From positions 2,098 through 66,097 of the forward strand of contig CAZNJB010000021.1 of the NCBI GenBank assembly GCA_964573255.1: 64,000 nt of DNA, written 5' to 3'. Numbering within the stretch: the first letter of the stretch is position 1; the number at the start of each line of letters is the position of its first letter. The notes beneath the pieces were generated by a model. It was not told the DNA's origin. It searched no databases and saw only the letters and a program-made list of their open reading frames with translations. Position numbers and translations under genes: made by a program. This document shows positions 44,250 through 59,323 of this stretch, piece by piece. Source of the stretch: an uncultured Melioribacteraceae bacterium (lineage in GTDB: Bacteria > Bacteroidota > Ignavibacteria > Ignavibacteriales > Melioribacteraceae).

Positions 44250-44263
44250 ATATTTAAAGTTCT

Positions 44264-45535
44264 ATGAGTCTTATCAATTCATTAATTAACAATAAAAAAC
44301 TTATCCATAATTTTACATCACTGACCATCCTTCAATTAACTAATTACCTTTTCCCATTGATAACTTTTCCGTATTTGGTAAGAGTATTAGGCTCGGAAGT
44401 ATACGGATTAGTAAGTTTTGCAATTGCTTTCGTTACTTATTTTATTGTTCTAACGGATTATGGATTCAATCTATCTGCAACTCAAGAAATTTCCATCCAC
44501 AGAAATAATGAAAATAAAAAAAGGGAAATATTTTCTTCGGTATTGATAATTAAACTGGGACTATTCCTTCTTAGCGGATTGCTCTATTCATTGATTGTAC
44601 TTAGTTTTAAAAAATTTCAAGTCGATTCCGATCTTTATTTTTTATCCTTTATGTTAGTGCTGGGTTCGGTTCTTTCGCCGAATTGGTTTTTTAAAGGATT
44701 GGAAGAGATGAAGATTATTACGATCATTACTTTTGTTGTAAAAGTCATATGGGTTATTTCTGTATTTGTTTTTATTAAATCGGAAAAAGATTATTTATTG
44801 TTTATCATCCTAAACGGGATTGCCGCAATATTGAACGGAGTTTTGGGAATATTAATAATTTATTTTAAATACGGAGTGAGATTAGTTTTTCCAACCCTAT
44901 CCGAAATAAAACATCAGTTAATTGAAGGATGGTATTTATTTGCCTCGAGCGCTTCAATTACTTTGTATACTACTTCAAATATATTCATACTCGGTTTATT
45001 CGCCGGGAATGATATCGTGGGATATTTTGCCGCAGCGGATAAAATTCGTCTGGCGGTGCAAGGCCTCTTTGAAAATGCTTCTCAAACAATATTCCCTCAT
45101 TTAGCAAAGCTGTTTAATGAATCAAAAGCTCAAGCAGTGAGTTTTGTGAAAAAATATATCTTTATTATCTTGTCCATTGCATTCATTTTAACATTTATTT
45201 TGCTAGTGTTTTCAAGAGAATTGATTTTATTGGTTTTAGGCTCAAGTTATTTGCCAGCTTTAACGGTCTTTCGCATAATTATATTCCTTCCGTTAATTAT
45301 ACTTTTGAGTAACATATTTGGAATTCAAGTAATGTTGAATTTGGGATACAAAAAAGAATTCTTCAAAATCATTTTTTTAGCGGGAATTATTAATTTACTC
45401 ATCTCTTTTCTAGTCATTCCAGTTTATTATGAAATCGGAACGGCCCTATCCATTGTTATTAGCGAAGTATTTGTAACGGCTGCTTTTATTCATTTTGTGA
45501 AAAAGAAAAAATTACTGAAATTAAATATTATATGA
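44264..45535 (+). CDS. wzx: MOP-superfamily polysaccharide flippase (Wzx-like)
   Basis: 423 aa with ~12 TM segments and an N-terminal LTILQLTNYLFPLITFPYLVRVLG motif. Confidence 0.75.
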   Translation: MSLINSLINNKKLIHNFTSLTILQLTNYLFPLITFPYLVRVLGSEVYGLVSFAIAFVTYFIVLTDYGFNLSATQEISIHRNNENKKREIFSSVLIIKLGLFLLSGLLYSLIVLSFKKFQVDSDLYFLSFMLVLGSVLSPNWFFKGLEEMKIITIITFVVKVIWVISVFVFIKSEKDYLLFIILNGIAAILNGVLGILIIYFKYGVRLVFPTLSEIKHQLIEGWYLFASSASITLYTTSNIFILGLFAGNDIVGYFAAADKIRLAVQGLFENASQTIFPHLAKLFNESKAQAVSFVKKYIFIILSIAFILTFILLVFSRELILLVLGSSYLPALTVFRIIIFLPLIILLSNIFGIQVMLNLGYKKEFFKIIFLAGIINLLISFLVIPVYYEIGTALSIVISEVFVTAAFIHFVKKKKLLKLNII

Positions 45536-45601
45536 TTTAATCACCCAATTAGTGTTAATCGTAGTATAGTTAAAAATGGAAACTTTTTGTGAGCGCTAAT
45601 T

Positions 45602-46702
45602 ATGCAGCAATATGATTATTTAATCGTGGGAGCTGGTTTTGCCGGTGCTGTGCTGGCAGAGAGGCTTGCTACACAGATGAATAAAAAAGTGATCATTGTG
45701 GAAAAGAGGAACCACATTGGAGGGAATGCTTATGATGAGTTTGATGATCATGGAATTCTTGTCCATCGATACGGACCGCACATTTTTCATACAAACAGTA
45801 AAAAAGTTTTTGATTATTTATCCCAGTTTACTGAATGGTCTTTTTATGAACACAAAGTTTTAGCAAAATTAAACGGTGAATATTATCCCATCCCAATCAA
45901 TCGGACAACCATTAACAAATTATATAATTTGAATCTCAAAAATGATGAAGAAACTGCTTTGTTTTTTGCTTCTGTTTGTTCTAAAAGATTCCCGATTAGA
46001 AACTCGGAAGATATAATTGTAAGTAAAGTTGGTAAAGATTTATATGAAAAGTTTTTTAAGTTTTACACTAAAAAGCAATGGGGAATAGATCCGAAAGAGT
46101 TATCTCCCTCAGTGTGCGGAAGAATACCAATAAGAACAAACAATGATGATCGTTATTTTGATGATAAATATCAGTACATGCCTAAAAATGGATTTACAAA
46201 GATGTTCGAAAAGATGTTATCTCATAAAAATATAGAAATTATTCTTAATAGCGATTATAAAACACTGGAGAAAGATCTTCTCTTTGACAGGATGATTTAT
46301 ACCGGTCCGATTGATTACTTCTTCGATTACGAATTTGGGAAGTTACCTTACAGGTCAATCAAATTTGAATATGAACATTTTAATAAAGATTATTATTTAC
46401 CGGCATCACAAATAAATTTTGTGGATGAAAGTATTCCATACACAAGAGTTGTAGAGCATAAAAGAATAACTCTTACTAGTAATAATGGAACAACTATTAG
46501 TTATGAATATCCAAATCAATCTGGTGACCCATATTATCCGATACCTACCGAGAGTAATTATGAATTATTTAAGAAATACTGGTCAAGAGCAGAAAATTTA
46601 CGAAACGTAATATTTTGCGGAAGATTAGCTGAATATAAATATTATAATATGGATCAAGTAATAGGCAATGCATTGAATACATTTAGGAAATTATATGAAT
46701 GA
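45602..46702 (+). CDS. glf: UDP-galactopyranose mutase
   Basis: FAD fold YDYLIVGAGFAGAVLAERLA. Also HIGGNAYD, HRYGPHIFHT and GRLAEYKYYNMD motifs. Confidence 0.95.
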   Translation: MQQYDYLIVGAGFAGAVLAERLATQMNKKVIIVEKRNHIGGNAYDEFDDHGILVHRYGPHIFHTNSKKVFDYLSQFTEWSFYEHKVLAKLNGEYYPIPINRTTINKLYNLNLKNDEETALFFASVCSKRFPIRNSEDIIVSKVGKDLYEKFFKFYTKKQWGIDPKELSPSVCGRIPIRTNNDDRYFDDKYQYMPKNGFTKMFEKMLSHKNIEIILNSDYKTLEKDLLFDRMIYTGPIDYFFDYEFGKLPYRSIKFEYEHFNKDYYLPASQINFVDESIPYTRVVEHKRITLTSNNGTTISYEYPNQSGDPYYPIPTESNYELFKKYWSRAENLRNVIFCGRLAEYKYYNMDQVIGNALNTFRKLYE

Positions 46703-47603
46703 GCCATTAGTCAGCGTTAATATAATATCCTACAATCGTAAAAATGAGTTGAGATATACTCTGCAAAAGGTTTTTGCACAAGAATATAAAAATATTGAAG
46801 TGATAGTCGTTGATAATTCATCATCGGATGGTACGCAGGAAATGGTGACAAGAGAATTTCCAAATGTTAAGTTGATTCAAATGAATGATAATATTGGAAT
46901 ATCTGCTTGGAACAAAGGATTTGAGATATCGAATGGGGAATACATTTTAGTTTTAGATGATGATAGCTATCCTGAGAAAAATTCAATACAAAGAGCATTA
47001 GAAGTATTTAATGAAGACAATAAAATTGGTATAGTTGCATTTAATATTTACAATTCCAAATATGAATTTTATGAAACTCATAATTATCCAAGGAATATTA
47101 TCTCGTTTGTTGGGTGTGGTGCTTTGATAGATAGTAGGAAATTAAAAACAGTTGGCTTTTATGATGAAAATTTATTTATATATTTGAATGAGCTGGAATT
47201 ATCAGCAAGATTCTGGGACTATGGATTTAAAGTAGTATTCTGTAAAGAAGCAACTTGCATTCATAACCAAAGTTTAAAATCACGCGAAGTAAATAAAAAT
47301 CCATTTAGAAGCAGCTATAGATATAAACATTTCTTTTGGGGTATGAGTTATTTTATATTGACAAAAATAGATTTTCCAAATTCTTATTCCTCTCTCGTTA
47401 AATGGATTGTCAATAGATTTTTAATTTCAATACGATATTTATTTATAAAAGAATTTATGGTCGGGTGTTTTAATATTGTTCAAAAGTCATACATAATTAG
47501 GAAAAATCGAAAACCTTTAAAGAAAGAAGTTCAAGAATTTTACAGAAATGGGAATTTATTTGCTTGGATTGACAGAGACTATTTCCCAGAATTTAAGAAA
47601 TAA
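46695..47603 (+). CDS. GT2-family glycosyltransferase
   Basis: VSVNIISYNRKNEL...VVDNSSSDGT...LDDDS motifs. 8-nt overlap with glf. Confidence 0.85.
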   Translation: MNEPLVSVNIISYNRKNELRYTLQKVFAQEYKNIEVIVVDNSSSDGTQEMVTREFPNVKLIQMNDNIGISAWNKGFEISNGEYILVLDDDSYPEKNSIQRALEVFNEDNKIGIVAFNIYNSKYEFYETHNYPRNIISFVGCGALIDSRKLKTVGFYDENLFIYLNELELSARFWDYGFKVVFCKEATCIHNQSLKSREVNKNPFRSSYRYKHFFWGMSYFILTKIDFPNSYSSLVKWIVNRFLISIRYLFIKEFMVGCFNIVQKSYIIRKNRKPLKKEVQEFYRNGNLFAWIDRDYFPEFKK

Positions 47604-47611
47604 GCAGCGGG

Positions 47612-48727
47612 ATGTTTATAAAATATATCGAAAATATAATATCATATTTAATATTTAAACTGATGTATTTCTACTTCAGTAGAATGTCGACTCGCACTAC
47701 AATCAGGAATATATTGTTTGTTAATTTGGCTTTAATGGGGGATGTAATTTTATCATCTGTTATCTTTACCAATGATAACTTACTCGAGAAGGGCTACAGT
47801 TATTATTTTATAACATCAGAAAAATACAAAGAGATATTTCATGATTATAACGGAGTAATTAAACTAATTTTTATCAATAAGAGGAAATATAAATTTAATC
47901 TCCTTTATAGATTAAAACTGATTAAGCAATTAAAAGAATTGAGTTTTCATAAAATCTATAATTTGAATTTCACTAGAATATCCATTGACGATGAAATATC
48001 ATTGCTGCCGGGTATTAATAGTCAAACAATTACGTTTAAGAATAATCCCAATTTAAAGAGATTGCTTGGAAGTGCTTTCGACTCGAAGTACAGTGAATTA
48101 ATTGAACGGAACATTAATGAAGTATATATCTTTAATATCCTTTCTCTAACAAGGAATTTATTTATCAAGGAACCATCTGCAAAAACTAAAGTTTATTTTA
48201 AAAGTCAGAATACAGGAGTAAATAATTTTTTTATATCGGATTATTTTGTTGTAAATCCTTACTCATCAACAACAATAAAAAATTGGTCGTTAGAAAAATA
48301 TAAAACATTGATATATAAATTAACTGAAGAATTAAATCTATCCTGTGTAATACTTGGGGTAAATTATGATAATACTGAAGTATTACGGGGAGAGAAAGTT
48401 ATTAATAAGGTAAACAAAACAACGATCAGTGATAGTCTGAACATCATCGATAAATCTTTATTTTTTATCGGTAATGACAGTGGTTTGCTTCATGCAGCAA
48501 TAGCAATGAATAAATTATGTTTTGCCATTGTTGGTGGAGGTGTTTGGGGACAAATATATCCTTATCAAAAAAAAGATGTGAATTATTTTTATGAGAAAAT
48601 GGACTGTTTTAATTGCGGATGGGTTTGTAAGTATGAACAACCTCTATGTATTTACAACCTATCTGTAAACCAAGTATTTAATAGTATAATTAATAGTTTT
48701 TCAAATGATAGAAAGAGATGTATATAA
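47612..48727 (+). CDS. GT9-family (heptosyltransferase-like) glycosyltransferase
   Basis: ILFVNLALMGDVILSS near the N-terminus and IGNDSGLLHAAIAMN near the C-terminus. The true start may be an internal Met at about 47684. Confidence 0.7.
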   Translation: MFIKYIENIISYLIFKLMYFYFSRMSTRTTIRNILFVNLALMGDVILSSVIFTNDNLLEKGYSYYFITSEKYKEIFHDYNGVIKLIFINKRKYKFNLLYRLKLIKQLKELSFHKIYNLNFTRISIDDEISLLPGINSQTITFKNNPNLKRLLGSAFDSKYSELIERNINEVYIFNILSLTRNLFIKEPSAKTKVYFKSQNTGVNNFFISDYFVVNPYSSTTIKNWSLEKYKTLIYKLTEELNLSCVILGVNYDNTEVLRGEKVINKVNKTTISDSLNIIDKSLFFIGNDSGLLHAAIAMNKLCFAIVGGGVWGQIYPYQKKDVNYFYEKMDCFNCGWVCKYEQPLCIYNLSVNQVFNSIINSFSNDRKRCI

Positions 48728-49613
48728 ATTTTATGTCGTAGTAGTTCATTATGGTGACCCCGGTATAACCGATAAGTGTATTAAATCAATTCTGAGACAA
48801 AAGGAGTATATAGAAGAATTAGTCGTATCGGATAACAGCGGTAATTATTTGCCAATGCAGGGTACAGAGAACCTTATAAAAGTAATTGACAATCAAAGGA
48901 ATATTGGTTATGCTGCTGCTATAAATAAAGGGCTGGAATATGGGCGTGAGTTAAATGCCGAATATTATCTACTTCTTAACAATGACGTGATTCTTGAGGA
49001 TGATTTTTTCAAAAATATATGCCAAGAAATTGGGAACGATAAGTTGTTTATTGCTTCTCCTCGAATTCATTATTTACAAGATAAAAAAATAATATGGTAT
49101 AATGGGGGATATATAGATTATCTGAAGTTTGAAGGGGTACATAAAGACATTGATCGATATTCCAGTGAATGCACTATACCGGAAATAAAACAGGAAGTTA
49201 CTTTTATCTCTGGTGCCGTTTTTATCATTACTCTCGATGTGATAGAAAAAATTGGAATGATAGATGAAAAATATTTTCTTTATTATGAAGACTTAGATTT
49301 CTCATTGACAGCACTCAGGAATGGAATAAAACTTTTATATATCCCACAAGCAGTTGCTTATCATAATGTATCTAGTAATACAAAGCAAATGGATAGCTTC
49401 TTAAATTTCAAGAAAGAAATATATTATTACAGAATAAGGAACAAACTTTTAATTCTGTCAAAATACGGTAAAGAGTTATACCGACTATCGGGTATATTTT
49501 ATCTTAGTATTAAAATCCTAAAATATTTTATGCTCTTTATTCTTGTCGGAAAGTTTTCATATATAAAATTAATATTTAGAGGAATTTTTGATGCATTTTC
49601 GCTTGATAAATAA
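48705..49613 (+). CDS. GT2-family glycosyltransferase (rhamnosyltransferase-like)
   Basis: VVVVHYGDP...VSDNSG...NIGYAAAINKG...LLLNNDV and YYEDLDFS motifs. 23-nt overlap with the upstream gene. Confidence 0.8.
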   Translation: MIERDVYKFYVVVVHYGDPGITDKCIKSILRQKEYIEELVVSDNSGNYLPMQGTENLIKVIDNQRNIGYAAAINKGLEYGRELNAEYYLLLNNDVILEDDFFKNICQEIGNDKLFIASPRIHYLQDKKIIWYNGGYIDYLKFEGVHKDIDRYSSECTIPEIKQEVTFISGAVFIITLDVIEKIGMIDEKYFLYYEDLDFSLTALRNGIKLLYIPQAVAYHNVSSNTKQMDSFLNFKKEIYYYRIRNKLLILSKYGKELYRLSGIFYLSIKILKYFMLFILVGKFSYIKLIFRGIFDAFSLDK

Positions 49614-50883
49614 GTCTAAATTCATTTATCATATAGCTATTATTTTTTTTCTATTTCAATTGTGTTTTATTTTTACAACTCCTCCTTTCGAAGCTCCTGA
49701 TGAGAATCATCATTTAAATTATATAAATTTTATATCGAAAAATATTTCATTACCAAATCAGGAACAAACAGAAACTCTACTTAAAGGGGAAGGTCATCAA
49801 AATCCTTTGTATTACATTATTGCCGCAGGTCTTACCAGATTGTTGTTAGAAGATAACATTATTGATTACAGGTTAATTCCGAATACTAATCATATATGGT
49901 ACGGTGGTGATAAATATAATGTGCCATTATTTGTTCATATAAACGTTTTTGAAAAATATTCCGATAGAATTGTTTTTTACATGCTAAGAATATTCACTGC
50001 CTTATTTTCTTTAGTTACTGTAATTATGTTTTATAAGACTCTCTTGCTACTTGAAAATAGTAATAATATTTCAATTTTAACAATAATACTGATTACAAAT
50101 ATTCCTGAGTTCATTTTTATTTCCGGAATGATTAACAATGATTCTTTGGCTTTAATGTTCATTTCCTTGTCAGTTTATAATTTTGCAAAAGCAATTAATA
50201 ATTCAAGTGATAAACTCTCATTATATTTGTCTTATCTATATTTAGCTCTATCCGTATTGACCAAGTTTTATGCACTAATTCTTTTCTTTGTGTTTTCTTT
50301 TTATTTAGTTTTCATAAAAACCAATAGGAATACAAAAATAAATATTACGATAGTTGCCTCAATATCTTTGTTTATTGTAATCATTCTACCACTTTTACTA
50401 TGGAAATTTATTTATTATGAAAATTTTATCCGTGCATCAATTCTCGAAACAGATCAAAATTTATGGGCATTAAATTTTCAAGAATTTCTGGGGCAAATTA
50501 TATTTTTCTTTCAGTCATTCTTTGGCAAATTCGGCTGGGCGAATGTAACCTTACCGTTTTATATTTATGGAGCATACTTAATAATATGGGGAATTATATT
50601 AATTAATTCCATCCGGAAAATAGACTTCAGTAACGGAATGATTCTGTTCTCAATAATTGCTATATTCTCATTAATATTAGAAATTATTTACTTTAATTCT
50701 TATACGCTTCAGATGCAGGGTAGATATTTCTTCCCTGCGCTCAGTTTTATTTCAATTATATCATATTATGGTATTAAATCTATTAGTGCTAAAATATCTT
50801 ATAGGTCAATGAATATTATTATAATTGGGATATATTCGTTAACTATTTATTCAGTAATTTGGAACGCTATCTTTTATCGGTAA
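49588..50883 (+). CDS. Polytopic membrane protein, GT-C-fold glycosyltransferase or polymerase-like (ArnT/PMT/DUF2142-like)
   Basis: About 11 TM segments. The first extracytoplasmic loop carries PPFEAPDENHHLNY, a DE-type motif. 26-nt overlap with the upstream gene. Confidence 0.5.
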   Translation: MMHFRLINKSKFIYHIAIIFFLFQLCFIFTTPPFEAPDENHHLNYINFISKNISLPNQEQTETLLKGEGHQNPLYYIIAAGLTRLLLEDNIIDYRLIPNTNHIWYGGDKYNVPLFVHINVFEKYSDRIVFYMLRIFTALFSLVTVIMFYKTLLLLENSNNISILTIILITNIPEFIFISGMINNDSLALMFISLSVYNFAKAINNSSDKLSLYLSYLYLALSVLTKFYALILFFVFSFYLVFIKTNRNTKINITIVASISLFIVIILPLLLWKFIYYENFIRASILETDQNLWALNFQEFLGQIIFFFQSFFGKFGWANVTLPFYIYGAYLIIWGIILINSIRKIDFSNGMILFSIIAIFSLILEIIYFNSYTLQMQGRYFFPALSFISIISYYGIKSISAKISYRSMNIIIIGIYSLTIYSVIWNAIFYR

Positions 50884-50905
50884 TAAAGTTACATCTATTG
50901 AATTA

Positions 50906-51859: not shown

Positions 51860-52553
51860 TTATGATTCCATTCTTAAAGAATTCGGGCAATGCATAGATA
51901 ATAATTCGAAACTCATTGCTACATATGTAACAGCAGCTTCTTTATTGGAAATAAAGAAAGATCAAAATTTATATAAAATCTATAATTCATTCGACATTGT
52001 ACATTCTGACGGAATAGGAGTTTATTTAGCCTTTAAATTATTGAGAACTGATAATAATTCCATTAAGAGAATGACCGGCTCAGATTTATATCCCATATTA
52101 ATGGATAGGGCAATTAAAAATAATTGGTCATTCTATTTTTTTGGTGAAAGGAATGAGACGCTTGAAAAAATTAGTAACATTCATACAAAATTAAAAATTG
52201 CAGGGAAACATCCCGGGTATAATTTTATTGATAATAAAGTTGTAGATGATATTAATTCAGCAAAACCTGATATTTTAATAATCGGTTTAGGAGCGCCTAT
52301 TCAAGAAAAGTGGGTTGTAAGAAATAAAGATAGATTGAATGCAAAGATTATTATTTGTGTTGGACAAGGTATTAGGGTATTTTCAGGTGAGAAAGACAGA
52401 GGAACAAAATTGTTGCAGAAAATTGGACTGGAATGGTTTGTCAGGTTATGCTGCGAGCCAAGAAGATTGTGGAGAAGGTATATTATAGGAATTCCTTTAT
52501 TTATATATTATATTATAAAAGAAAAAATATCCCCAAGAGATTATGCTAGTTAG
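51825..52553 (+). CDS. WecB/TagA/CpsF-family (GT26) glycosyltransferase
   Basis: DGIGV..., FFGE..., PDILIIGLGAPIQEKWV and LEWFVRLCCEPRRLWRRY motifs. 35-nt overlap with the upstream gene. Confidence 0.85.
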   Translation: MKIFGVNISYTNYDSILKEFGQCIDNNSKLIATYVTAASLLEIKKDQNLYKIYNSFDIVHSDGIGVYLAFKLLRTDNNSIKRMTGSDLYPILMDRAIKNNWSFYFFGERNETLEKISNIHTKLKIAGKHPGYNFIDNKVVDDINSAKPDILIIGLGAPIQEKWVVRNKDRLNAKIIICVGQGIRVFSGEKDRGTKLLQKIGLEWFVRLCCEPRRLWRRYIIGIPLFIYYIIKEKISPRDYAS

Positions 52554-55500
52554 ATATGTTATAATTTTTATAATGATTCCCTATCTAATCTTTCCTCAGT
52601 CTGTTTCTAAAATAGAAGTAAAAAAAAATTCTTTTAGTGTAGAGATAGATTTCCCTAAACCCAAATACAAAGATTATAAACAAGGTGATTTTGTTATTCG
52701 CGATTATTTTGAATACACAGATCCCTCGAAAAACGGCAAATCCAAATTGCCATCAAAAACTTTAATTTTTGCTATTCCCCCAAATACTTCGCCAAATATA
52801 ATCGTTGAGGATAAAAAAGATATAAAGTTAAAAAACATCATTCCAGCAGTTAATCCACAAATTATATCAATTAACGATTCTACTCTTGCGTATTCTGAAT
52901 CGGAATGGATTAAAACGGATAAAAATAATTCGCTCTATCATATTGAAGGTCAATTTTGGTGGAGAGATTTTTACTGCGTTGCAATAAAAGTGTTTACTCA
53001 TAATTTTAATCCGCAAGAAAGAAGCATACAAGAAATTGAAAAGATAAAATTACGTTTCCAATTTGATAATGATGTATGGATTGATTCCTATAGTCCTATC
53101 AAAGTATATTCACACTATGACGAAATTCTTAAGAATGCAATTAAGAATCAAATAATTGCCGAACAGTTTAGAAGCAATTCTACTAAATATGCAGCAACCG
53201 ATTCAGTGTGGAACTGGATAAATTTCAATAATACTTATATTAAATTTGGTGTGGTACAAGATGGAATATATCGGATTTCATTCGATTTATTGAATTCACT
53301 GGGGATAAATATTTCGAATATTGATCCGACAACCTTTCAATTATTTGAGAGTGGGACGGAAATTCCCATATTTGTACGAGGCGAAAATAACGGTACTTTT
53401 GAACAGGATGAATATATTGAATTTTATGGGCAATCACATTATCCAAAGATATCACATAGAATTATAAATAATGACAATGAAGAATATAATGAATACAAAG
53501 ATCGCTATACTGATACCTCATATTATTTTTTAACTTGGGGAGATAAAAAAGGGAAGCGAATATTTATTGATGATAGTTTGTATTCAACTCAAGATACAAT
53601 TGATTACTATTTGGAAGTAATTCATAAAGAGGAAAACAATTGGTATCAGAATGCAAATAATGATGAAATTGCAAATCAAACTCCCAATTGGAATAAAAAC
53701 AAAACTTGGTACTGGAAGTGGTTAGGTGATTGGAACTCTCCATTAAAATTTGAGTTTTCTGCCGATAGAATCTCAAATAAAGATAATGTGAAAGTCTACT
53801 TTAAAGCTTCAAGTGCTGGATCAAATATTATAGTTAATTCTCATCAATTAGCACTCTACCTTAACGGTGTTAAAATTGACTCGCAGCAAGTTAACAGATT
53901 TAATCAAGTATTGTTGAATGGTGCAGTCAATTCTGATTTTCTGGAAGAAGGGGTAAACACAATTACTGTATTTAATCATAAAAATGGCACCTCACCAAAC
54001 TATCTTGCAGTTGATTGGTTTGATGTTGAATATCCGCGTGATCTATGGTTACGTAATGATTCGCTCATTTTCAAGATTTCTGAAAATAATTCAGGCTTAC
54101 TAAAATTATTTAAAATATCAAACACAAGTAATAATAATTATCTTATTTATAGAATTTCACCTACTCAAAAGAAGATTACAAATTATTACCGGTCGGGCAA
54201 TTCTATTTATTTTACAGATACACTATTAAATAAAAATGTTTATGCTGTATTTTCAGAAGAGAAAGTATTTTCGCCTTCATCTTTTAGTAAAGTTAAATTT
54301 ATTGATTTATCTAATAATCCAAACGGTGCGGACTACATTTTAATTACTAATCAGCGCTTTAGTCAAATAGTTGATCAATATATTGACTATATATCCAGTG
54401 AATATCATTTGAAAACATACAAAACAATTGTTAATGATATATTCAATCAATTTGGTTACGGTTATCCCACTCCCGAAGCAATAAAACTATTTTTGCAAAC
54501 AGCTTTTGACAGATGGGGATTCCCTAAATCTTCATATTTAGAAATCATCGGAGACGCTTCATACGATTATAAAGGTTATGTATTCAATAATGAAGGGATT
54601 AAACTTAGTGAAAACTTAGTTCCCGCATATGGGAATCCTGTGAGTGATAATTGGTATGCGATTTGGGAATCGGAATATAACTTGCCGCAATTATTGGTAG
54701 GTAGACTGCCTATAAGATCAGCGGAAGAGTTAACAAACTATATTGAAAAATTAAAATCATATAATTCTTCACCTTGGGACGATTGGAATAAAAGATATCT
54801 TCTTTTTTCAGGTGGTAATGGTGATAACGAATATGAATTAATGCAATTGCGCAGCATCAATGACTCTATAATAAATAAATTGATACGTCCTCGACCGATA
54901 TCCGGAAATTATTTCCATTTTTATAAAACCATATATCCCAAAAGCGATTTAGGACCATATTCACAGCAGGAAATCAAATCCGCATTAGATAATGGTGGAA
55001 TATTTATTTCATATTTGGGGCATAGTGGAACTGCTACTTGGGACAATGGAATTAATTCCGTTAAGCAACTTGAGAATAAATATAATCGATCACCATTAAT
55101 AACAGATTTTGGATGTTCAACAAACAAATTTGCAGAACCGGATATTATTTCTTTTGGTGAAAGGTTTGTACTCGATCAAGATGGACAAGCGATAGGTTAT
55201 GTAGGTAATTCTTCTTTAGGATTTTTATCTTCTGCAACTTCAGCCCCACTTTATTTCTACAAATCAATTTTCGAAGATTCACTCCATCAAATTGGTGATG
55301 CTCATTTATTATGCAAGGTACAATTAATCGAGAATCTTGGTCCGGGCGGCACAGCTAAAATATTTTCATATACCAATTCAATAATTGGAGATCCGGTAAT
55401 CTCTCTCAAAATTCCTAACAAGCCGAATTTAATTATAACTCCCGATGATTTACTGGTTAATTCTAATTATGATGAAAGTTTTGATTCTATTGCAGTACCA

Positions 55501-57867
55501 TTTGTTGTAACTAATAATGGGGCATCACTTCTGGATTCATTGAATATTATGTTACAACAAACTTATGATGGCGGAATAATTAAAAGGGAAATAAAAAGAA
55601 TTATTTTGCCTGAATATAAGGATACTCTGCTTTTTTATTTTAAGACAAAAGGTTATCCTGGAATACATAATATTGAATTAACATTGGATTATGATAATGA
55701 AATAGATGAAATCTATGAGAACGATAATCATTTGAGTTATTCATTAAATGTTTATTCATTGGCCTTAAGAGATGTAGTTCCTTATAACTTTACGGCAGCT
55801 CTAAATAATAAATTAAAGATATTGAATCCATCAAACTATAATGAAAATAGATTAAGCGTTGATTTGCAAATATCTGAAAGAGGTGATTTCTCTTATTATA
55901 ATGAACAATTTATAGAATCTGATTCATTTTATTCCTATGTAAATCTTAATGAATTACAAGATGGAAAGCGTTATTGGTATCGTTATCGGATAAATAAATC
56001 TGCGGAAGAATTTTCTCCTGTTAAATCATTTATAAAAAATTCAAATAACAATTTTATAATTAATGATTCGATTTCTTTTTCCGTTCAAGATTGCGGTCAC
56101 CTTGTTTTCAATAATGGCATCGTTTTATCCAATGATTCAGTTACAATTTCTGTTCTTTCGGCGGGAGCTTATACCGGTGCAACTTGTGTGATTTCTCGAA
56201 ATGGTAAAAATTTACTCTCAAACAATTTCTTTGCTGGAATGGCAATAGCCACATTTAATCCAGTTACGATGGAGGTTGATACTGCATTTTGGCTGGAGTT
56301 ATTCCAACGTCCGGATAATGTCCAGTTACTTGCGGATTTTATTAACTCTCTTCCGTCAGGTGAAATTGTTGCTATGGGAGTTTCGAATGATGCCCGAAAT
56401 AATATGAGTTCAACTCTCAAAGATGCTATCAGAACATTAGGGAGCAGCAAAATCGATTCATTGGTTTTTCAAGGTCCTTGGGCATTGATTGGTGCTAAAG
56501 GTGCCAATCCTAATGATATTATTGAGATGGTTGGAGGTAAATATGATCCTACGATTATAATAGATTCTGTTTTTATTACCTCATCTAGTTATGGTTATCT
56601 GCTTACTGAAAGAATTGGTCCTGCAAAAAAATGGAATTCTTTAAACATTCGGCAATCTACTGATAATAATTCAATACTAAAGTTCAGATTGCTTGGAATT
56701 AAGAAAGATGAATCGATTGATACATTGAATTATTTAGCATATGGAGATTCGCCCATAAATATTGATACATTGAATGCGACTACTTATCCTTACATAAGAT
56801 TATTAACTGAATTCATTGCCGGAGACAGTCTCTATTCGCCAAAACTAAATGAACTCGCTGTGCAATATTTAGCAGTTCCGGAACTTGGTACAAATTATCA
56901 AGTAGCATCTGTAGATAGAGATACTGTTATCCAAGGGGAGGATATAAATCTTTCTTTTTATGTGTATAATGTCGGTGAATCAACTGCGGATGATTTTAGA
57001 GTTATAGTTAAACTTAAGAATGATAATACTTCTTCGGAACTGATATATGAGGAAATAGTTGATTCTTTAGTTCCTGAAAAAAGTAAATATTTTAATGTAA
57101 AGTTAAATACTTCCAATTTCTATGGGGAAGGAGAATTATCTATTTCAATTGACGAGGAAGATAAAATATTAGAATTATATGAAGATAATAATTTTTATGC
57201 AGTTCCTTTCTATGTCCAAAAAGATACTTCCAAACCATCTATAGAAGTTACATTCGATGGAGAGACTATTTTAGACGGCGATTTTGTCTCTTCCAATACT
57301 GTAATACAAATTGCTTTAAACGATCCTTCACTAATTCCAATTGCTGATACTTCCTCTGTTTCCATATCATTGGATAATTATCCAATCTATTATTCAAACA
57401 ACAATAATATTGATATATCCTTTCAGGAGATTAATCCTAAAGTTCTTATAACATTTCATCCTGAATTGAAGAAAGGCAGGCATAAGTTAACTGTATTTGC
57501 GAGAAATGCAAATGGGATTATGGCGGATAGTTCGGGATTGATAAAGTATTTTGAAGTTGATAACAATCTTCAGTTGTTAGACGTTTATAATTATCCTAAT
57601 CCATTCAGTAAAGAAACATACTTTACTTTCCGCTTATCTAAACTTCCCGAACAAATAAGCATTAAAATTTATACAATTGCCGGACGGCTAATAAAAACAA
57701 TTCAATTAAGTAAAGCTGAATTAAATTTGAATTTGAATAAAGTTAATTGGGATGGAAAAGATAATGATGGAGATCCGGTAGCAAACGGCACTTATTTATA
57801 CCAAGTGATTTTATACAATGAAGGCAAACATTTGACCAGCACTAATAAACTTGCAATTATCCACTGA
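52543..57867 (+). CDS. Giant secreted C25 (gingipain/PorU-like) cysteine peptidase-family protein with CARDB-like modules, an ILEI-like module and a T9SS/FlgD-Ig-type C-terminal domain
   Basis: Signal-like N-terminus, then a propeptide-like region. Catalytic-type His in YLGHSGTATW (codon at 55021) and Cys in TDFGCSTNKF (codon at 55114). C-terminal YPNPFSKETYFTF...IYTIAGRLIKTI...WDGKDNDGDPVANGTYLYQV. The ATG overlaps the GT26 gene by 11 nt. Confidence 0.8.
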   Translation: MLVRYVIIFIMIPYLIFPQSVSKIEVKKNSFSVEIDFPKPKYKDYKQGDFVIRDYFEYTDPSKNGKSKLPSKTLIFAIPPNTSPNIIVEDKKDIKLKNIIPAVNPQIISINDSTLAYSESEWIKTDKNNSLYHIEGQFWWRDFYCVAIKVFTHNFNPQERSIQEIEKIKLRFQFDNDVWIDSYSPIKVYSHYDEILKNAIKNQIIAEQFRSNSTKYAATDSVWNWINFNNTYIKFGVVQDGIYRISFDLLNSLGINISNIDPTTFQLFESGTEIPIFVRGENNGTFEQDEYIEFYGQSHYPKISHRIINNDNEEYNEYKDRYTDTSYYFLTWGDKKGKRIFIDDSLYSTQDTIDYYLEVIHKEENNWYQNANNDEIANQTPNWNKNKTWYWKWLGDWNSPLKFEFSADRISNKDNVKVYFKASSAGSNIIVNSHQLALYLNGVKIDSQQVNRFNQVLLNGAVNSDFLEEGVNTITVFNHKNGTSPNYLAVDWFDVEYPRDLWLRNDSLIFKISENNSGLLKLFKISNTSNNNYLIYRISPTQKKITNYYRSGNSIYFTDTLLNKNVYAVFSEEKVFSPSSFSKVKFIDLSNNPNGADYILITNQRFSQIVDQYIDYISSEYHLKTYKTIVNDIFNQFGYGYPTPEAIKLFLQTAFDRWGFPKSSYLEIIGDASYDYKGYVFNNEGIKLSENLVPAYGNPVSDNWYAIWESEYNLPQLLVGRLPIRSAEELTNYIEKLKSYNSSPWDDWNKRYLLFSGGNGDNEYELMQLRSINDSIINKLIRPRPISGNYFHFYKTIYPKSDLGPYSQQEIKSALDNGGIFISYLGHSGTATWDNGINSVKQLENKYNRSPLITDFGCSTNKFAEPDIISFGERFVLDQDGQAIGYVGNSSLGFLSSATSAPLYFYKSIFEDSLHQIGDAHLLCKVQLIENLGPGGTAKIFSYTNSIIGDPVISLKIPNKPNLIITPDDLLVNSNYDESFDSIAVPFVVTNNGASLLDSLNIMLQQTYDGGIIKREIKRIILPEYKDTLLFYFKTKGYPGIHNIELTLDYDNEIDEIYENDNHLSYSLNVYSLALRDVVPYNFTAALNNKLKILNPSNYNENRLSVDLQISERGDFSYYNEQFIESDSFYSYVNLNELQDGKRYWYRYRINKSAEEFSPVKSFIKNSNNNFIINDSISFSVQDCGHLVFNNGIVLSNDSVTISVLSAGAYTGATCVISRNGKNLLSNNFFAGMAIATFNPVTMEVDTAFWLELFQRPDNVQLLADFINSLPSGEIVAMGVSNDARNNMSSTLKDAIRTLGSSKIDSLVFQGPWALIGAKGANPNDIIEMVGGKYDPTIIIDSVFITSSSYGYLLTERIGPAKKWNSLNIRQSTDNNSILKFRLLGIKKDESIDTLNYLAYGDSPINIDTLNATTYPYIRLLTEFIAGDSLYSPKLNELAVQYLAVPELGTNYQVASVDRDTVIQGEDINLSFYVYNVGESTADDFRVIVKLKNDNTSSELIYEEIVDSLVPEKSKYFNVKLNTSNFYGEGELSISIDEEDKILELYEDNNFYAVPFYVQKDTSKPSIEVTFDGETILDGDFVSSNTVIQIALNDPSLIPIADTSSVSISLDNYPIYYSNNNNIDISFQEINPKVLITFHPELKKGRHKLTVFARNANGIMADSSGLIKYFEVDNNLQLLDVYNYPNPFSKETYFTFRLSKLPEQISIKIYTIAGRLIKTIQLSKAELNLNLNKVNWDGKDNDGDPVANGTYLYQVILYNEGKHLTSTNKLAIIH

Positions 57868-57985
57868 TACAGAAAATAGATTGATTAAATTAATATTTTA
57901 TTGATTTTTACCACGTTTTATAAATGTAATATTTAGTAATTTTACCAGTGAAAATTTCAAAATGAAGAATAATTGTGGAGTATTT

Positions 57986-59323
57986 ATGAAAAAATTATTG
58001 ATGGTAATCTTTTTTGTATCAAGTTTTACTTTCGCACAATTTCAATCTTTGCACCCCAATGAGGGAAACCTTGGGGCTGGATTGGGAATGAGCTGGATTA
58101 ATGACAATCCATTTTATACTTTCCGTTTCAATCCGGAAATTGCATTTGCGAATATGGGAATAGGGCTTGACCTTAACTTGGAGTTCTCTCCTAATGGACA
58201 GATTCGTACCGAAAACTTTAACGAACTTTCAGATTATTTAAGCATAATACGTTATTTCAGATACGGACAAAAAGGCGATCCGCTGTACTTTCGTGTTGGA
58301 GCATTGGACTACGCAACTCTTGGTCACGGTTCGATAATGTATCTTTACAATAACAGTCCGACTTTTGATGCACGCCGTTTGGGAGTGGAATTCGATTTGG
58401 ATATGAATCAGTTCGGATTTGAGTTGGTTTACGGAAGCTTTCTGCAGAGTGGTGTTGTAGGGGTGCGTGGTTATACTCGTCCGCTAAAATTTACTACTCT
58501 AGGTTCTGTTCCTATTATTGGTAACCTTGAAGTCGGTGCTACCGTAGTTAATGATTTTAATTCCGATGCTACTGTAATTGCAGGTACTTACGATCCTGTG
58601 ACTGATAAATTTACAGCAACTCAAACGGAAAGTTCGGTTACTGAGTTTGGTTTCGATATTGGTTTACCGTTGGTGAACAACAGCATTGTAAAACTCGATC
58701 TCTATTATGACTTTGCACAAATATTGAATTACGGTAATGGATCTTCAGCGGGATTTATTTTCGGTCTAAACGGTTTGGGTTTGGTTAATGTAAGAACCAA
58801 ATTCGAACGTCGTTTTAACAACGATCAATATATTCCGGCTTATTTTGGCTCAATGTATGAGTTGGAAAGATTCAGATTGGATAAAACCACCGGGTCGGTT
58901 TCATCCAAAATTCAACAGTTGAAAAACATGCAGGCTTCTCTAGGCAACGGATGGTATGGCGAATTGCTTGTTACATTATTGGGAACCTTCGATATACTCG
59001 GAAGTTATCAACGTTTGGATAATCATCCTGAAAGTGGAATACTTCATTTATCGACAGACGTTTCACCTAAAGACGGTTCCTTTGTCGCACGTGCAGGATA
59101 CGATAAAATTAATATCAAAGACGAAAAAGACCTTTTCACACTCGACGATCGTTCCTATTTATTTGCGGAACTCGGTTATAAACCAATGCCGTATATAGTC
59201 GTTTCGATGGTGTATAATTGGACGTTCTCGCCTGTTCGCGACGCCGATGATAATATATTGGGTTACGAGCCTCAGAAGAAAATTGAACCGAGAGTTTCGT
59301 TCGTTTATCCATTTAATTTTTAA
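57986..59323 (+). CDS. Hypothetical outer-membrane beta-barrel protein
   Basis: The ATG at 57986 follows a GTGGAG SD. Signal peptide ending in FTFAQ, beta-strand periodicity, and a C-terminal ...FVYPFNF. Confidence 0.6.
   Translation: MKKLLMVIFFVSSFTFAQFQSLHPNEGNLGAGLGMSWINDNPFYTFRFNPEIAFANMGIGLDLNLEFSPNGQIRTENFNELSDYLSIIRYFRYGQKGDPLYFRVGALDYATLGHGSIMYLYNNSPTFDARRLGVEFDLDMNQFGFELVYGSFLQSGVVGVRGYTRPLKFTTLGSVPIIGNLEVGATVVNDFNSDATVIAGTYDPVTDKFTATQTESSVTEFGFDIGLPLVNNSIVKLDLYYDFAQILNYGNGSSAGFIFGLNGLGLVNVRTKFERRFNNDQYIPAYFGSMYELERFRLDKTTGSVSSKIQQLKNMQASLGNGWYGELLVTLLGTFDILGSYQRLDNHPESGILHLSTDVSPKDGSFVARAGYDKINIKDEKDLFTLDDRSYLFAELGYKPMPYIVVSMVYNWTFSPVRDADDNILGYEPQKKIEPRVSFVYPFNF

What the first reader, a model, noticed from the sequence alone, without database searches (positions are those of the whole stretch)
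44264..59323. Glycan-assembly operon running without a break into a giant PorU/gingipain-like C25 peptidase and a trailing beta-barrel: candidate self-contained surface-anchoring module
Seen in the sequence:
- Eight glycan genes are packed head-to-tail: Wzx-like flippase, Glf, two GT2, two GT9-like, a polytopic GT-C-like membrane protein and a GT26. The overlaps are 8, 23, 26 and 35 nt.
- The last gene (GT26) overlaps by 11 nt the ATG (52543) of a 1,774-aa ORF.
- That ORF has a signal-like N-terminus, a C25-type His (YLGHSGTATW) and Cys (TDFGCSTNKF) 31 residues apart, and a ~90-aa C-terminal YPNPF...WDGKDNDGDPVANGTYLY sorting-type domain.
- 118 bp downstream sits a 445-aa signal-peptide protein ending in ...YPFNF, followed by a strong terminator.

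Established knowledge: in the Bacteroidota type IX secretion system, the C25-like sortase PorU removes cargo C-terminal domains and attaches cargo to anionic LPS. Synthesis of that LPS needs a dedicated Wzx flippase (PorS) and glycosyltransferases. porU usually sits next to the porV barrel.

Inference: this locus may encode both the anchor glycan and the enzyme that attaches proteins to it, as one transcription unit, in an organism that looks Ignavibacteria-like rather than Bacteroidota. I am not aware of such a physical coupling being described.
Basis: partly seen in the sequence, partly recalled or inferred. Interest (0 to 1): 0.72.

Follow-up and report, generated by a model that had tools for sequence, protein, structure and literature searches.

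The report
Sortase-like peptidase fused to glycan operon
In Ignavibacteria and several related uncultured lineages, a long relative of the enzyme PorU (which attaches secreted proteins to surface sugars in Bacteroidota) is almost always encoded directly after a small sugar-chain assembly operon. This may point to the sugar anchor these bacteria use, but no experiment has tested it.

Summary
Window 44264-59323 holds Wzx, Glf, 2 GT2, 2 GT9, a polytopic GT-C/PMT_2-like protein and a WecG/TagA GT26. The GT26 overlaps by 11 nt a 1,774-aa C25 peptidase gene. A 445-aa beta-barrel gene and a strong hairpin follow.

The peptidase belongs to the PorU family and is not a gingipain.
- Its best solved relative is P. 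gingivalis PorU.
- It scores just below NCBIfam's cut-offs: "PorU2" 412 bits against 450, and PorU 321 against 420.
- It shares the long architecture of true PorU2 proteins: C25 domain, GG/PANDER lectin domain, CARDB, T9SS CTD.

The glycan linkage is strongly conserved.
- GT26 lies upstream in 62 of 64 Ignavibacteria species loci, and about 45 of these have a tight junction.
- Glycosyltransferase genes flank relatives of only 26-39% identity whose other neighbours differ.

The barrel is not PorV-like. It is linked in 49 of 64 Ignavibacteria loci and in none of the distant relatives.

The cluster is not self-contained. It has no initiating transferase, no polymerase or ligase, and no amino-sugar pathway.

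Best reading: a PorU2-like sortase coupled to a short, non-polymerised anchor oligosaccharide. This reading is inferred. I could not test whether a canonical PorU exists elsewhere in the genome. I rate it a new variant of a known kind, of moderate to high interest.

The parts
40484..44249 (+). Conserved upstream flank in the same gene run: TPR protein (40484-42280), LolB1-like DUF4292 lipoprotein insertase (42277-43053) and an EnvC-like M23 protein (43050-44249).
   Evidence: Pfam and NCBIfam, (LolB1_Flavo 81.6 bits against a cut-off of 50). The internal junctions overlap by 4 nt, and 14 nt separate M23 from Wzx. The same flank is present in most Ignavibacteria loci.
44264..45535 (+). Wzx-type flippase (Polysacc_synt), with about 12 hydrophobic segments.
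   Evidence: It is the first gene of the cluster in many relatives.
45602..46702 (+). UDP-galactopyranose mutase (Glf).
   Evidence: TIGR00031 386.5 bits against a cut-off of 303.75.
46695..47603 (+). GT2 glycosyltransferase, soluble. It has a weak resemblance to the galactofuranosyltransferase GlfT1.
47612..48727 (+). GT9-like (heptosyltransferase-family) glycosyltransferase.
   Evidence: Pfam Glyco_transf_9, 37 bits against a cut-off of 22.
48705..49613 (+). GT2 glycosyltransferase, rhamnosyltransferase-like.
49588..50883 (+). Polytopic GT-C-like membrane protein (PMT/PMT_2/DUF2142), with about 9 hydrophobic segments. It is probably a periplasmic-side transferase.
   Evidence: PMT_2 genes recur in the distant loci L081 and L084.
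50906..51859 (+). Second GT9-like glycosyltransferase.
51825..52553 (+). GT26 (WecG/TagA/CpsF family) glycosyltransferase. It is the conserved last glycan gene and overlaps the C25 start by 11 nt.
   Evidence: Pfam 156 bits and TIGR00696 109 bits against a cut-off of 69. It lies upstream of the C25 gene in 62 of 64 loci and in the distant loci L081, L084, L085 and L088.
52543..57867 (+). 1,774-aa long-form PorU-family (PorU2-like) C25 cysteine peptidase, the putative T9SS C-terminal signal peptidase and sortase.
   Evidence: Peptidase_C25 197 bits. NCBIfam PorU2 412.1 against 450, and PorU 320.8 against 420. The best PDB relative is P. gingivalis PorU, 6za2. Orthologues of 1,750-1,830 aa are widespread.
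53212..55728 (+). PorU-like N-terminal domains plus the C25 catalytic domain (residues 224-1062). Catalytic His827 is at 55021-55023 and Cys858 at 55114-55116.
   Evidence: This region covers positions 24-879 of the 879-position PorU2 model. His and Cys are invariant and align with the GH and C of PorU.
56236..56505 (+). GG/PANDER (ILEI)-type lectin-like domain (residues 1232-1321) within a run of Ig-like domains.
   Evidence: Pfam ILEI 63 bits. The AF2 model of residues 1063-1690 has pLDDT 88.6. Foldseek gives TM 0.78-0.81 to the carbohydrate-binding stem domain of POMGnT1 and about 0.70 to FAM3B.
56908..57201 (+). CARDB domain (residues 1456-1553).
   Evidence: Pfam 44 bits against a cut-off of 22.7.
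57592..57864 (+). T9SS type-A C-terminal sorting domain of the FlgD-Ig type (residues 1684-1774).
   Evidence: TIGR04183 25.2 against 23; FlgD_ig 33.1 against 27. It aligns with the last Ig domain plus CTD of P. gingivalis PorU.
57986..59323 (+). 445-aa outer-membrane beta-barrel with a signal peptide and no known family. It is a conserved neighbour in Ignavibacteria only.
   Evidence: No Pfam hit. AF2 model pLDDT 75.8 with about 20-22 strands. Foldseek matches only generic porins. Orthologues are 57-87% identical. It lies downstream of the C25 gene in 49 of 64 loci and in none of the distant loci. Its GC3 is 0.352, against 0.229 for the C25 gene.
59330..59357 (.). Perfect 11-bp hairpin between the convergent barrel and HAD genes; a likely bidirectional terminator.
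   Evidence: sequence; -21.2 kcal/mol, z = -4.27.

Best explanation
The locus couples two things that are known separately.

(1) The eight upstream genes form a Wzx-dependent pathway with no polymerase, no chain-length regulator and no initiating transferase. They therefore most likely build one short oligosaccharide unit, of roughly six to eight sugars including galactofuranose, on undecaprenyl pyrophosphate. A WecG/TagA-type GT26 is the one step conserved in all relatives, and a GT-C enzyme acts on the periplasmic side.

(2) The 1,774-aa protein is a long-form PorU-family C25 cysteine peptidase ("PorU2-like"). Its order of domains is signal peptide, prodomain, PorU N-domains, catalytic His827/Cys858, Ig repeats, a GG/PANDER lectin-like domain, CARDB, and a T9SS CTD that carries it to the surface.

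By analogy with P. gingivalis PorU, it would cleave the C-terminal sorting domain from T9SS cargo and resolve the acyl-enzyme onto a nucleophile in a surface glycolipid. The glycan made next door would be that acceptor or part of it. The built-in lectin domain would hold the glycan, a role played by the separate protein PorZ in P. gingivalis.

Shown: the gene content, the domain architecture, the conserved catalytic dyad, the homology to PorU, and the deep conservation of the linkage between the glycan genes and the C25 gene. Inferred: sortase activity, the glycan as acceptor, the lectin role, and co-transcription.

The downstream barrel is probably a separately expressed envelope protein. I do not count it as a core part of the module.
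For: PorU-family identity:
- The NCBIfam PorU2 model is matched over positions 24-879 of 879 (412 bits), and the PorU model over positions 5-738 (321 bits).
- PDB searches return PorU (6za2) and no gingipain. Both the catalytic domain and the C-terminal Ig domain plus CTD are collinear with it.
- His827 and Cys858 are invariant.
- The protein aligns end to end with a bona fide PorU2 (Pontibacter, 1,035 bits on the model), including the stretch from the ILEI domain to the CTD.

Conserved linkage:
- Among 64 Ignavibacteria species loci with upstream sequence, 62 have GT26 upstream. About 45 of them have it on the same strand within -17 to +59 nt.
- The interior glycosyltransferases vary between loci (GT2, GT4, GT9, Glf).
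- Relatives at 26-39% identity have unrelated downstream genes but keep the arrangement: Wzx-GTs-PMT_2-GT9-WecG-C25 (L081, L084), GT9-GT4-GT9-WecG-C25 (L085), a full cluster with WecG plus Wzi (L088), GT9...C25-MT-GT4 (L091), and C25-Wzy_C (L086).
- A short relative of 1,077 aa without the lectin domain is not next to glycan genes.

Other support:
- The lectin domain fold matches the POMGnT1 stem domain at TM 0.78-0.81.
- The T9SS context is supported by small CTD-bearing cargo genes placed between the C25 gene and the barrel gene in about 15 loci.
- GC3 of the C25 gene (0.229) matches that of the glycan genes (0.24-0.26) and not that of the barrel gene (0.352).
- Precedent: P. gingivalis cargo is tethered through a single non-polymerised linker unit flipped by a dedicated Wzx (PMC13086638, PMC7468200), and PorZ delivers the glycan to PorU (PMC8754138).
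Against: - The protein scores below both curated NCBIfam cut-offs. NCBI names the orthologues only "C25 family cysteine peptidase".
- It is closer to PorU2, a putative, uncharacterised paralogue, than to PorU. A canonical PorU could therefore do the general sorting elsewhere in the genome. I could not search the rest of the genome.
- There is no PorV-like partner next to it.
- The cluster has no Wbp/Vim-type genes that would give an amine nucleophile, no initiating transferase and no ligase.
- The cluster's layout equally fits a Bacteroidota LFG-type protein O-glycosylation locus (PMC12871550) or an LPS core or O-unit locus, given the GT9 genes.
- One distant relative (L092) shows no glycan gene on a short contig. 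The PorU2 of Flammeovirga is not next to a glycan cluster.
- A BLAST survey found only PorV, SprA and Plug homologues in Ignavibacterium and Melioribacter (PMC11705866). The T9SS of this group is itself poorly defined.
- There are no expression data.
Confidence: 0.45

Rival explanations
1. The glycan cluster is the class's general protein O-glycosylation locus (LFG-like) or an LPS core or O-unit locus. The PorU-like gene sits at its end because envelope-biogenesis genes are co-regulated. The peptidase may still be a sortase, but its acceptor glycan is made elsewhere.
For: - The layout of Wzx, then variable glycosyltransferases, then a conserved terminal glycosyltransferase, without Wzy, matches the LFG description (PMC12871550).
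- Two genes belong to GT9, which is typically an LPS-core family.
- The cluster has no amino-sugar or Vim-like genes.
- The whole run begins with the envelope genes TPR, LolB1 and EnvC.
Against: - The adjacency survives in lineages at 26-39% identity where all other neighbours have changed. Shared regulation alone does not predict this.
- metG, the conserved LFG flank, is absent; the flank here is M23.
- Junctions are tight or overlapping in about 45 of 64 loci.
Confidence: 0.25
2. The 1,774-aa protein is an ordinary T9SS cargo: a surface-exposed C25 protease or adhesin with lectin and Ig domains that binds or trims the neighbouring glycan or host polymers. It is not the sorting enzyme.
For: - It carries the same CTD as cargo proteins.
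- It is below the PorU and PorU2 cut-offs.
- It has about 600 extra residues of Ig, lectin and CARDB domains that are typical of surface proteins.
- Tandem duplicates occur in some genomes.
Against: - PorU itself keeps a CTD.
- Homology extends over the PorU-specific N-terminal domains and the last Ig domain plus CTD, not just the catalytic core.
- A genuine cargo-type C25 protein from an Ignavibacteria MAG (P0479) hits neither PorU model.
- The family is near-universal in the class and keeps its length.
Confidence: 0.15
3. The module is a dedicated second sorting branch (PorU2-type). It attaches only one or a few specific substrates to a dedicated glycan, alongside a general PorU encoded elsewhere. 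The small CTD protein encoded next door in many genomes would be one such substrate.
For: - The nearest named family is PorU2.
- Small CTD cargo genes lie immediately downstream in about 15 loci.
- The architecture is distinct from canonical PorU proteins of about 1,300 aa.
Against: - The small cargo gene is absent from this window and from many loci.
- No canonical PorU was seen in any retrieved Ignavibacteria sequence, although only about 25 kb per genome was examined.
- The BLAST survey reported no PorU in Ignavibacterium or Melioribacter (PMC11705866).
Confidence: 0.15

Closest known systems
PorU, the T9SS C-terminal signal peptidase and sortase of Porphyromonas gingivalis (PDB 6za2; NCBIfam NF033707)
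   Same: - C25 catalytic domain with the aligned His/Cys dyad.
- PorU-type N-terminal domains and a Propeptide_C25 region.
- A retained T9SS CTD; the last Ig domain plus CTD are collinear with PorU.
   Different: - About 600 residues longer, with Ig repeats, a GG/PANDER lectin-like domain and CARDB inserted before the CTD.
- 320.8 bits against a cut-off of 420.
- No adjacent porV.
- Encoded at the end of a glycan operon, whereas the P. gingivalis A-LPS genes are scattered (PMC7468200, PMC13086638).
NCBIfam NF052324, "putative type IX secretion system sortase PorU2" (for example Pontibacter ruber P0414, Flammeovirga agarivorans P0435)
   Same: - The same long architecture: C25 domain, ILEI, CARDB and a FlgD_ig-type CTD, at 1,650-1,770 aa.
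- The model is matched over its full length.
- End-to-end BLAST alignment, including the lectin-to-CTD half.
   Different: - 412.1 bits against a cut-off of 450.
- A separate clade in a crude NJ tree.
- The Flammeovirga PorU2 is not preceded by a glycan cluster. Its neighbours are RecG, an unknown 367-aa protein and a CE4 deacetylase.
- No PorV2-type partner is present here.
- PorU2 itself has no published experimental characterisation that I could find.
A-LPS linker (A-LS) pathway of P. gingivalis: PorS (Wzx), WbaP, GtfC, GtfF, VimF, and the Wbp/Vim linking-sugar genes
   Same: A dedicated Wzx flippase plus a handful of glycosyltransferases that make a single, non-polymerised oligosaccharide serving as the cargo anchor (PMC13086638). 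Here the cluster is Wzx plus six glycosyltransferases without Wzy.
   Different: - The glycosyltransferase families differ (GT26, GT9, GT-C and GT2, plus Glf).
- There is no Wbp/Vim amino-sugar pathway and no initiating transferase in the cluster.
- In P. gingivalis these genes are not linked to porU.
LFG-type general protein O-glycosylation loci of Bacteroidota
   Same: A wzx gene first, species-variable glycosyltransferases in the middle, a conserved glycosyltransferase at the end, and no polymerase (PMC12871550).
   Different: - No metG flank.
- The conserved terminal gene is a GT26 followed by a PorU-like peptidase.
- Orthology of the glycosyltransferases to LFG genes was not tested.
PorV/PorQ (FadL-like 14-strand T9SS shuttle barrels), as a candidate identity for the trailing barrel
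   Same: An outer-membrane beta-barrel encoded directly after a PorU-family gene.
   Different: - No PorV_fam, PorV or PorV2 hit, and no PDB sequence match.
- The model has about 20-22 strands and resembles only generic 18-strand porins at TM 0.35-0.40.
- A different window ORF (37011-38486) is the one with weak PorV/PorQ/BamG similarity.

Membership tests
T9SS sortase PorU (NF033707) | C25 catalytic domain with a conserved His/Cys dyad | tested here: met
   Peptidase_C25 197 bits. His827 and Cys858 are invariant in 12 orthologues and align with the GH...C of PorU 6za2.
T9SS sortase PorU (NF033707) | Score above the curated equivalog cut-off over the whole model | tested here: not met
   320.8 bits against a cut-off of 420; only model positions 5-738 of 1095 are matched. 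Canonical members score 520-1015 bits.
T9SS sortase PorU (NF033707) | Own T9SS C-terminal domain | tested here: met
   TIGR04183 25.2 against 23; FlgD_ig 33.1 against 27. The PorU CTD aligns to residues 1586-1778 of the family profile.
T9SS sortase PorU (NF033707) | Works with, and is usually encoded next to, PorV | tested here: not met
   The downstream barrel has no PorV-family hit and a different predicted barrel size.
T9SS sortase PorU (NF033707) | Removes cargo CTDs and transfers cargo to a glycolipid (transpeptidase activity) | not testable with these tools
   This needs genetics and mass spectrometry.
T9SS sortase PorU (NF033707) | Genome encodes the T9SS core (PorK/L/M/N, SprA/Sov) | not testable with these tools
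   None of these is in the 64-kb window. The literature reports SprA, PorV and Plug homologues in Ignavibacterium and Melioribacter (PMC11705866).
PorU2 (NF052324) | Score above the curated cut-off | tested here: not met
   412.1 bits against 450, over model positions 24-879 of 879. This is a near miss. Distant clade members score 361-424 bits, and the KSB1-type form scores 490.
PorU2 (NF052324) | Long architecture: C25 domain, ILEI lectin, CARDB and a FlgD_ig CTD | tested here: met
   Pontibacter P0414 has the same Pfam set; alignments 209-1113 and 1266-1764.
PorU2 (NF052324) | Partner PorV2 (NF052325) | tested here: not met
   The 445-aa barrel has no PorV2 hit. There is only a 33-bit N-terminal hit, in the unrelated upstream ORF 37011-38486.
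Gingipains (Rgp/Kgp) | Closest solved or curated relatives are gingipains, with a catalytic domain plus adhesin modules | tested here: not met
   PDB sequence searches return PorU and no gingipain. The N-terminal domains match PorU-specific models.
Wzx/Wzy-dependent O-antigen or capsule cluster | Wzx flippase present | tested here: met
   Polysacc_synt 189.5 bits.
Wzx/Wzy-dependent O-antigen or capsule cluster | Wzy polymerase, chain-length regulator and initiating phosphoglycosyl transferase in the cluster | tested here: not met
   No Wzy_C, Wzz, Bac_transf or WecA-type hit among the eight genes, nor in L015 and L037. Only the variant locus L088 has Bac_transf and Wzi.
Bacteroidota LFG O-glycosylation locus | wzx first, variable glycosyltransferases, conserved terminal glycosyltransferase(s), no polymerase | tested here: met
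   This is a layout match only.
Bacteroidota LFG O-glycosylation locus | metG flank and orthology to the LFG glycosyltransferases | tested here: inconclusive
   The upstream flank is the EnvC-like M23 gene, not metG. Orthology to the LFG glycosyltransferases was not tested.

The most novel reading that the evidence does not exclude
A lectin-bearing long-form PorU ("glyco-sortase") and the short Wzx-dependent oligosaccharide pathway ending in a WecG/TagA GT26 form one conserved functional unit across Ignavibacteria, KSB1-like and related lineages. The operon makes the acceptor glycan, and GT26 possibly installs the linking ManNAcA-type sugar. The sortase binds that glycan through its own GG/PANDER domain, which would make a separate PorZ unnecessary, and attaches T9SS cargo to it. 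This would be the first case where the anchor glycan of a T9SS can be read directly from the sortase's own operon. It might reflect the ancestral organisation of T9SS surface attachment.
Probability: 0.3. Interest if true: 0.78.

Novelty: new variant of a known kind. Interest (0 to 1): 0.6.

Why it matters
The glycan to which T9SS cargo is anchored took two decades to define in P. gingivalis. It is unknown outside a few oral Bacteroidota, and the genes there are scattered.

If the coupling seen here is functional, any genome carrying this operon names its own candidate anchor glycan and the enzymes that make it. It also offers a PorU variant whose glycan-binding module is built in. Three further points follow:
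- The attachment step of type IX secretion becomes testable outside classical Bacteroidota, in cultured organisms. The genome hits include loci labelled Ignavibacterium album and Melioribacter roseus, and the isolate Stygiobacter electus 09-Me.
- The curated but uncharacterised "PorU2" family gains a functional hypothesis.
- The variable interior and constant GT26 end of the cluster resemble antigenic-variation loci, which suggests that the anchor glycan is under diversifying selection.

Tried and rejected
- Barrel as PorV: rejected. It has no PorV, PorQ or PorV2 HMM hit. PDB sequence searches with the single protein and with the profile gave nothing. The AF2 model has about 20-22 strands, and its Foldseek hits are generic porins at TM 0.35-0.40.
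- Barrel as a Wzi-like capsule-anchoring lectin. The idea came from the Wzi gene after the 2,448-aa variant in L088. It is rejected at the sequence level: hhalign probability 0.2%.
- C25 protein as a gingipain: rejected.
- Canonical PorU elsewhere in the genome: not testable. The one extra C25+CTD protein I traced to an Ignavibacteria MAG (P0479) has no PorU or PorU2 signature.
- Sigma-70 promoter scan: uninformative. It found 106 sites against 107 expected. The Bacteroidota -7 motif TAnnTTTG is also at chance level, 13 against 15 expected, with none in the intergenic gaps.
- Other CTD-bearing cargo in the window: none found.
- Other T9SS genes in the window: none found. The rest is nuo, atp, SOD, topA, cysS and similar housekeeping genes.
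- Literature searches for PorU with Ignavibacteria, PorU2, PorU-like, and gene-neighbourhood terms found nothing describing this coupling. The "PorU2" search with match "anywhere" returned only irrelevant papers.
- PorV2 next to the Flammeovirga PorU2: the neighbouring 367-aa protein has no NCBIfam hit.

Full report
**Observation**

Thirteen same-strand genes run from 40484 to 59323 with gaps of at most 118 nt. The eight glycan genes are:
- Wzx (Polysacc_synt, 189 bits)
- Glf (TIGR00031, 386 bits, above its cut-off)
- two GT2
- two GT9-like
- a protein with about 9 hydrophobic segments that hits PMT, PMT_2 and DUF2142 (GT-C fold)
- a WecG/TagA/CpsF GT26

The overlaps of 8, 23, 26 and 35 nt are real. 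GT26 (51825-52553) overlaps the ATG of the 1,774-aa ORF (52543-57867) by 11 nt. The 445-aa ORF starts 118 nt after the big ORF and ends in VYPFNF. A perfect 11-bp hairpin follows at 59330-59357 (-21.2 kcal/mol, z = -4.3). The rest of the window is ordinary chromosome (nuo, atp, sodA, topA, cysS, rsgA) and holds no other T9SS gene.

**The large protein**

Pfam finds the following, in order:
- Propeptide_C25, residues 35-177
- Peptidase_C25, residues 598-955, 197 bits
- ILEI, residues 1232-1321
- CARDB, residues 1456-1553
- a FlgD_ig/Por_Secre_tail C-terminal domain

NCBIfam matches "putative T9SS sortase PorU2" over the whole 879-position model (412.1 bits, cut-off 450). It matches PorU over positions 5-738 (320.8 bits, cut-off 420). 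TIGR04183 passes.

The only peptidase among solved structures that matches by sequence is P. gingivalis PorU. With a family profile, both the catalytic domain (GH...C aligned) and the last Ig domain plus CTD of PorU align collinearly. His827 and Cys858 are invariant.

An AlphaFold model of residues 1063-1690 (pLDDT 88.6) is a string of Ig-like sandwiches plus one domain. That domain superposes on the carbohydrate-binding stem domain of POMGnT1 (TM 0.78-0.81) and on FAM3B (about 0.70).

So this is a PorU-family enzyme with about 600 extra residues that include a lectin-like module. It is not a gingipain.

**Family placement**

Orthologues of 1,750-1,830 aa with the same Pfam set are abundant. 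One search lists 120 at 41-50% identity, named at best "C25 family cysteine peptidase" from Ignavibacteriaceae, Melioribacteraceae and Ignavibacterium.

An exhaustive representative search found 1,916 proteins at E <= 1e-30. The top 150 are nearly all this long form, down to 26% identity. Distant members also sit just under both cut-offs.

Bona fide PorU2 proteins have the same architecture and length: Pontibacter ruber at 1,035 bits and Flammeovirga agarivorans at 610 bits. Canonical PorU proteins are about 1,300-1,360 aa.

The window protein aligns end to end with the Pontibacter PorU2, including the lectin-to-CTD half. It aligns less well with canonical PorU. In a crude neighbour-joining tree it forms its own clade beside the PorU2, KSB1-type and "deep" long forms, apart from canonical PorU.

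I therefore call it PorU2-like, failing formal membership by 38 bits.

**Is the glycan linkage conserved?**

Yes, and this is the main result.

A scan of one genome per GTDB species returned 188 relatives. The best 80 loci are all Ignavibacteria.
- GT26 lies upstream of the C25 gene in 62 of 64 loci that have enough upstream sequence.
- It is on the same strand, ending -17 to +59 nt from the C25 start, in about 45 of them.
- The cluster sits between a conserved TPR-LolB1-EnvC block and the C25 gene.
- Its interior varies between species: Glf, GT2, GT4 and GT9 in different numbers. Wzx opens it and GT26 closes it.
- Neither the window nor L015 and L037 contain Wzy, Wzz or an initiating transferase. 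This argues for a single oligosaccharide unit and against a polymer.

The association also survives in relatives at 26-39% identity whose other neighbours are unrelated:
- L081-083: Wzx-GT4-PMT_2-GT4-GT4-GT9-WecG-C25
- L084: Wzx-GT4-MT-GT9-PMT_2-GT9-WecG-C25
- L085: GT9-GT4-GT9-WecG-C25
- L088: a 2,448-aa variant inside a full cluster with Bac_transf, Ugd, epimerases, WecG, GT4 x3, GT2 and Wzi
- L091: GT9-?-C25-methyltransferase-GT4
- L086: a KSB1-type form followed by Wzy_C

There are counter-examples. A short contig (L092) shows no glycan gene. A 1,077-aa relative that lacks the lectin domain is not next to glycan genes. The Flammeovirga PorU2 is flanked by RecG and a CE4 deacetylase, with no glycan cluster.

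The C25 gene also shares the low GC3 of the glycan genes (0.229 against 0.24-0.26). The barrel gene does not (0.352).

**The trailing barrel**

It is well conserved, at 57-87% identity over 1,035 homologues, all unnamed and without Pfam domains.
- It has no PorV, PorQ or PorV2 hit and no PDB sequence relative, even with a profile.
- Its model (pLDDT 75.8) is a barrel of about 20-22 strands. Its best structural matches are generic 18-strand porins and AlgE at TM 0.35-0.40.
- It is unrelated in sequence to the Wzi of L088.
- It follows the C25 gene in 49 of 64 Ignavibacteria loci. In about 15 of those a small cargo gene with a T9SS CTD lies between them.
- It is missing in much of the Melioribacter branch and in every distant locus.

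I treat it as a conserved neighbour of unknown function, not as a PorV equivalent.

**Mechanism**

In P. gingivalis, PorU cleaves the CTD and transfers cargo onto an amine of a linking sugar. PorZ delivers the glycolipid to PorU (PMC8754138). The anchor is now understood as a single non-polymerised pentasaccharide linker that caps O-LPS. It is built by four glycosyltransferases and flipped by a dedicated Wzx (PMC13086638, PMC7468200).

The locus here looks like a compact version of that logic:
- one Wzx
- five to seven glycosyltransferases with no polymerase
- a sortase homologue that carries its own lectin domain

GT26 enzymes use ManNAc or ManNAcA-type donors (established knowledge of the WecG/TagA family). 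The T. forsythia linking sugar is a 2-N-glycyl-3-N-acetyl-mannuronic acid (PMC7468200). The invariant GT26 could therefore be the enzyme that installs the linking sugar. This last step is speculation.

The weaknesses are these. The cluster has no amino-sugar or aminoacyl-transfer genes, no initiating transferase and no ligase. The protein sits below the curated cut-offs. PorU2 is uncharacterised. I could not establish whether a canonical PorU exists in the genome.

**Rivals**

- The cluster's layout equally matches the LFG-type O-glycosylation loci of Bacteroidota (PMC12871550) or an LPS core or O-unit locus (GT9).
- The protein could be an ordinary lectin-bearing surface protease.
- It could serve a dedicated PorU2-type sorting branch.

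I give the sortase-plus-own-acceptor reading 0.45.

**Novelty**

T9SS outside classical Bacteroidota is acknowledged only in general terms (PMC11285876, PMC5837995). One BLAST survey found only PorV, SprA and Plug in Ignavibacterium and Melioribacter (PMC11705866). No paper I could find describes a PorU-type gene embedded in a glycan operon, or characterises PorU2.

The parts are known kinds. The conserved coupling and the lectin-bearing long form appear to be an undescribed variant. They can be tested in cultured Ignavibacteria.

Noticed in passing
L001 5906-6613; L002 13236-13922; L005 15352-16014; L013 15307-15996; L075 15256-15912 and about 10 more loci: A small gene of 220-240 aa with a signal peptide lies between the C25 gene and the barrel gene in many Ignavibacteria. 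It carries the motif LPVELxYF...WGTATEVNNYGFEVER and a T9SS CTD (Por_Secre_tail 27-31 bits, above the cut-off). It is absent from this window. It could be a dedicated substrate of the neighbouring peptidase.
   Followed up: partly
L026 9869-21041; L056 5679-16370; L050; L021: Some genomes carry two tandem full-length copies of the 1,780-aa C25 gene between GT26 and the barrel gene. In L056 one copy appears split.
   Followed up: partly
window 37011-38486 (+), with 35824-36975 (+) just upstream: A 491-aa FadL/Toluene_X-like barrel has weak NCBIfam hits to BamG (51 bits), the PorV/PorQ family (48.7 bits against a cut-off of 90) and PorV2 (33 bits). It lies 14 kb upstream of the C25 gene and is preceded by a 383-aa signal-peptide protein of no known family. 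It is a better PorV/PorQ candidate than the trailing barrel, but it is below all cut-offs.
   Followed up: partly
window 42277-43053 (+): The DUF4292 protein passes NCBIfam LolB1_Flavo (81.6 bits against 50). It sits in a conserved TPR-LolB1-EnvC(M23) block immediately upstream of the glycan cluster in most Ignavibacteria loci. In Flavobacterium, LolB is linked to gliding and T9SS (PMC11885536, title and abstract only).
   Followed up: no
L088 1-19703: A 2,448-aa variant with two ILEI and two CARDB domains is embedded in a complete capsule-like cluster: Bac_transf, Ugd, three epimerases, WecG, three GT4, the C25 gene, GT2 and Wzi. Here the partner barrel is a Wzi-family lectin.
   Followed up: partly
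L096 10001-17167 (Flammeovirga agarivorans): A bona fide PorU2 (610 bits) is flanked by an unannotated 367-aa protein and a CE4 polysaccharide deacetylase on the opposite strand. [quoted passage not shown]
   Followed up: no
L094 10001-13681 (Ignavibacteria MAG GCA_964652025.1): A separate 1,226-aa protein with Propeptide_C25, C25, fn3 and a CTD has no PorU or PorU2 HMM hit. It is an ordinary gingipain-like T9SS cargo in the same class, and it shows that the HMMs discriminate between the two kinds.
   Followed up: yes
window 44000-58000: The glycan genes and the C25 gene have the lowest GC and GC3 in the window (GC 0.27-0.31, GC3 0.23-0.26). Housekeeping genes have GC 0.34-0.41, and the barrel gene has GC3 0.35. 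Within the C25 gene, the ILEI domain is the most GC-rich segment (0.39).
   Followed up: partly
window 40846-41733 (-): A 295-aa ORF lies antisense inside the TPR gene. It is probably spurious.
   Followed up: no
window 18962-20984 (-): An overlapping pair of genes, a nucleotidyl transferase and an APH-family kinase, sits next to a sodium:solute symporter. The arrangement resembles a sugar-1-phosphate salvage route such as AmgK/MurU. It is unrelated to the finding.
   Followed up: no
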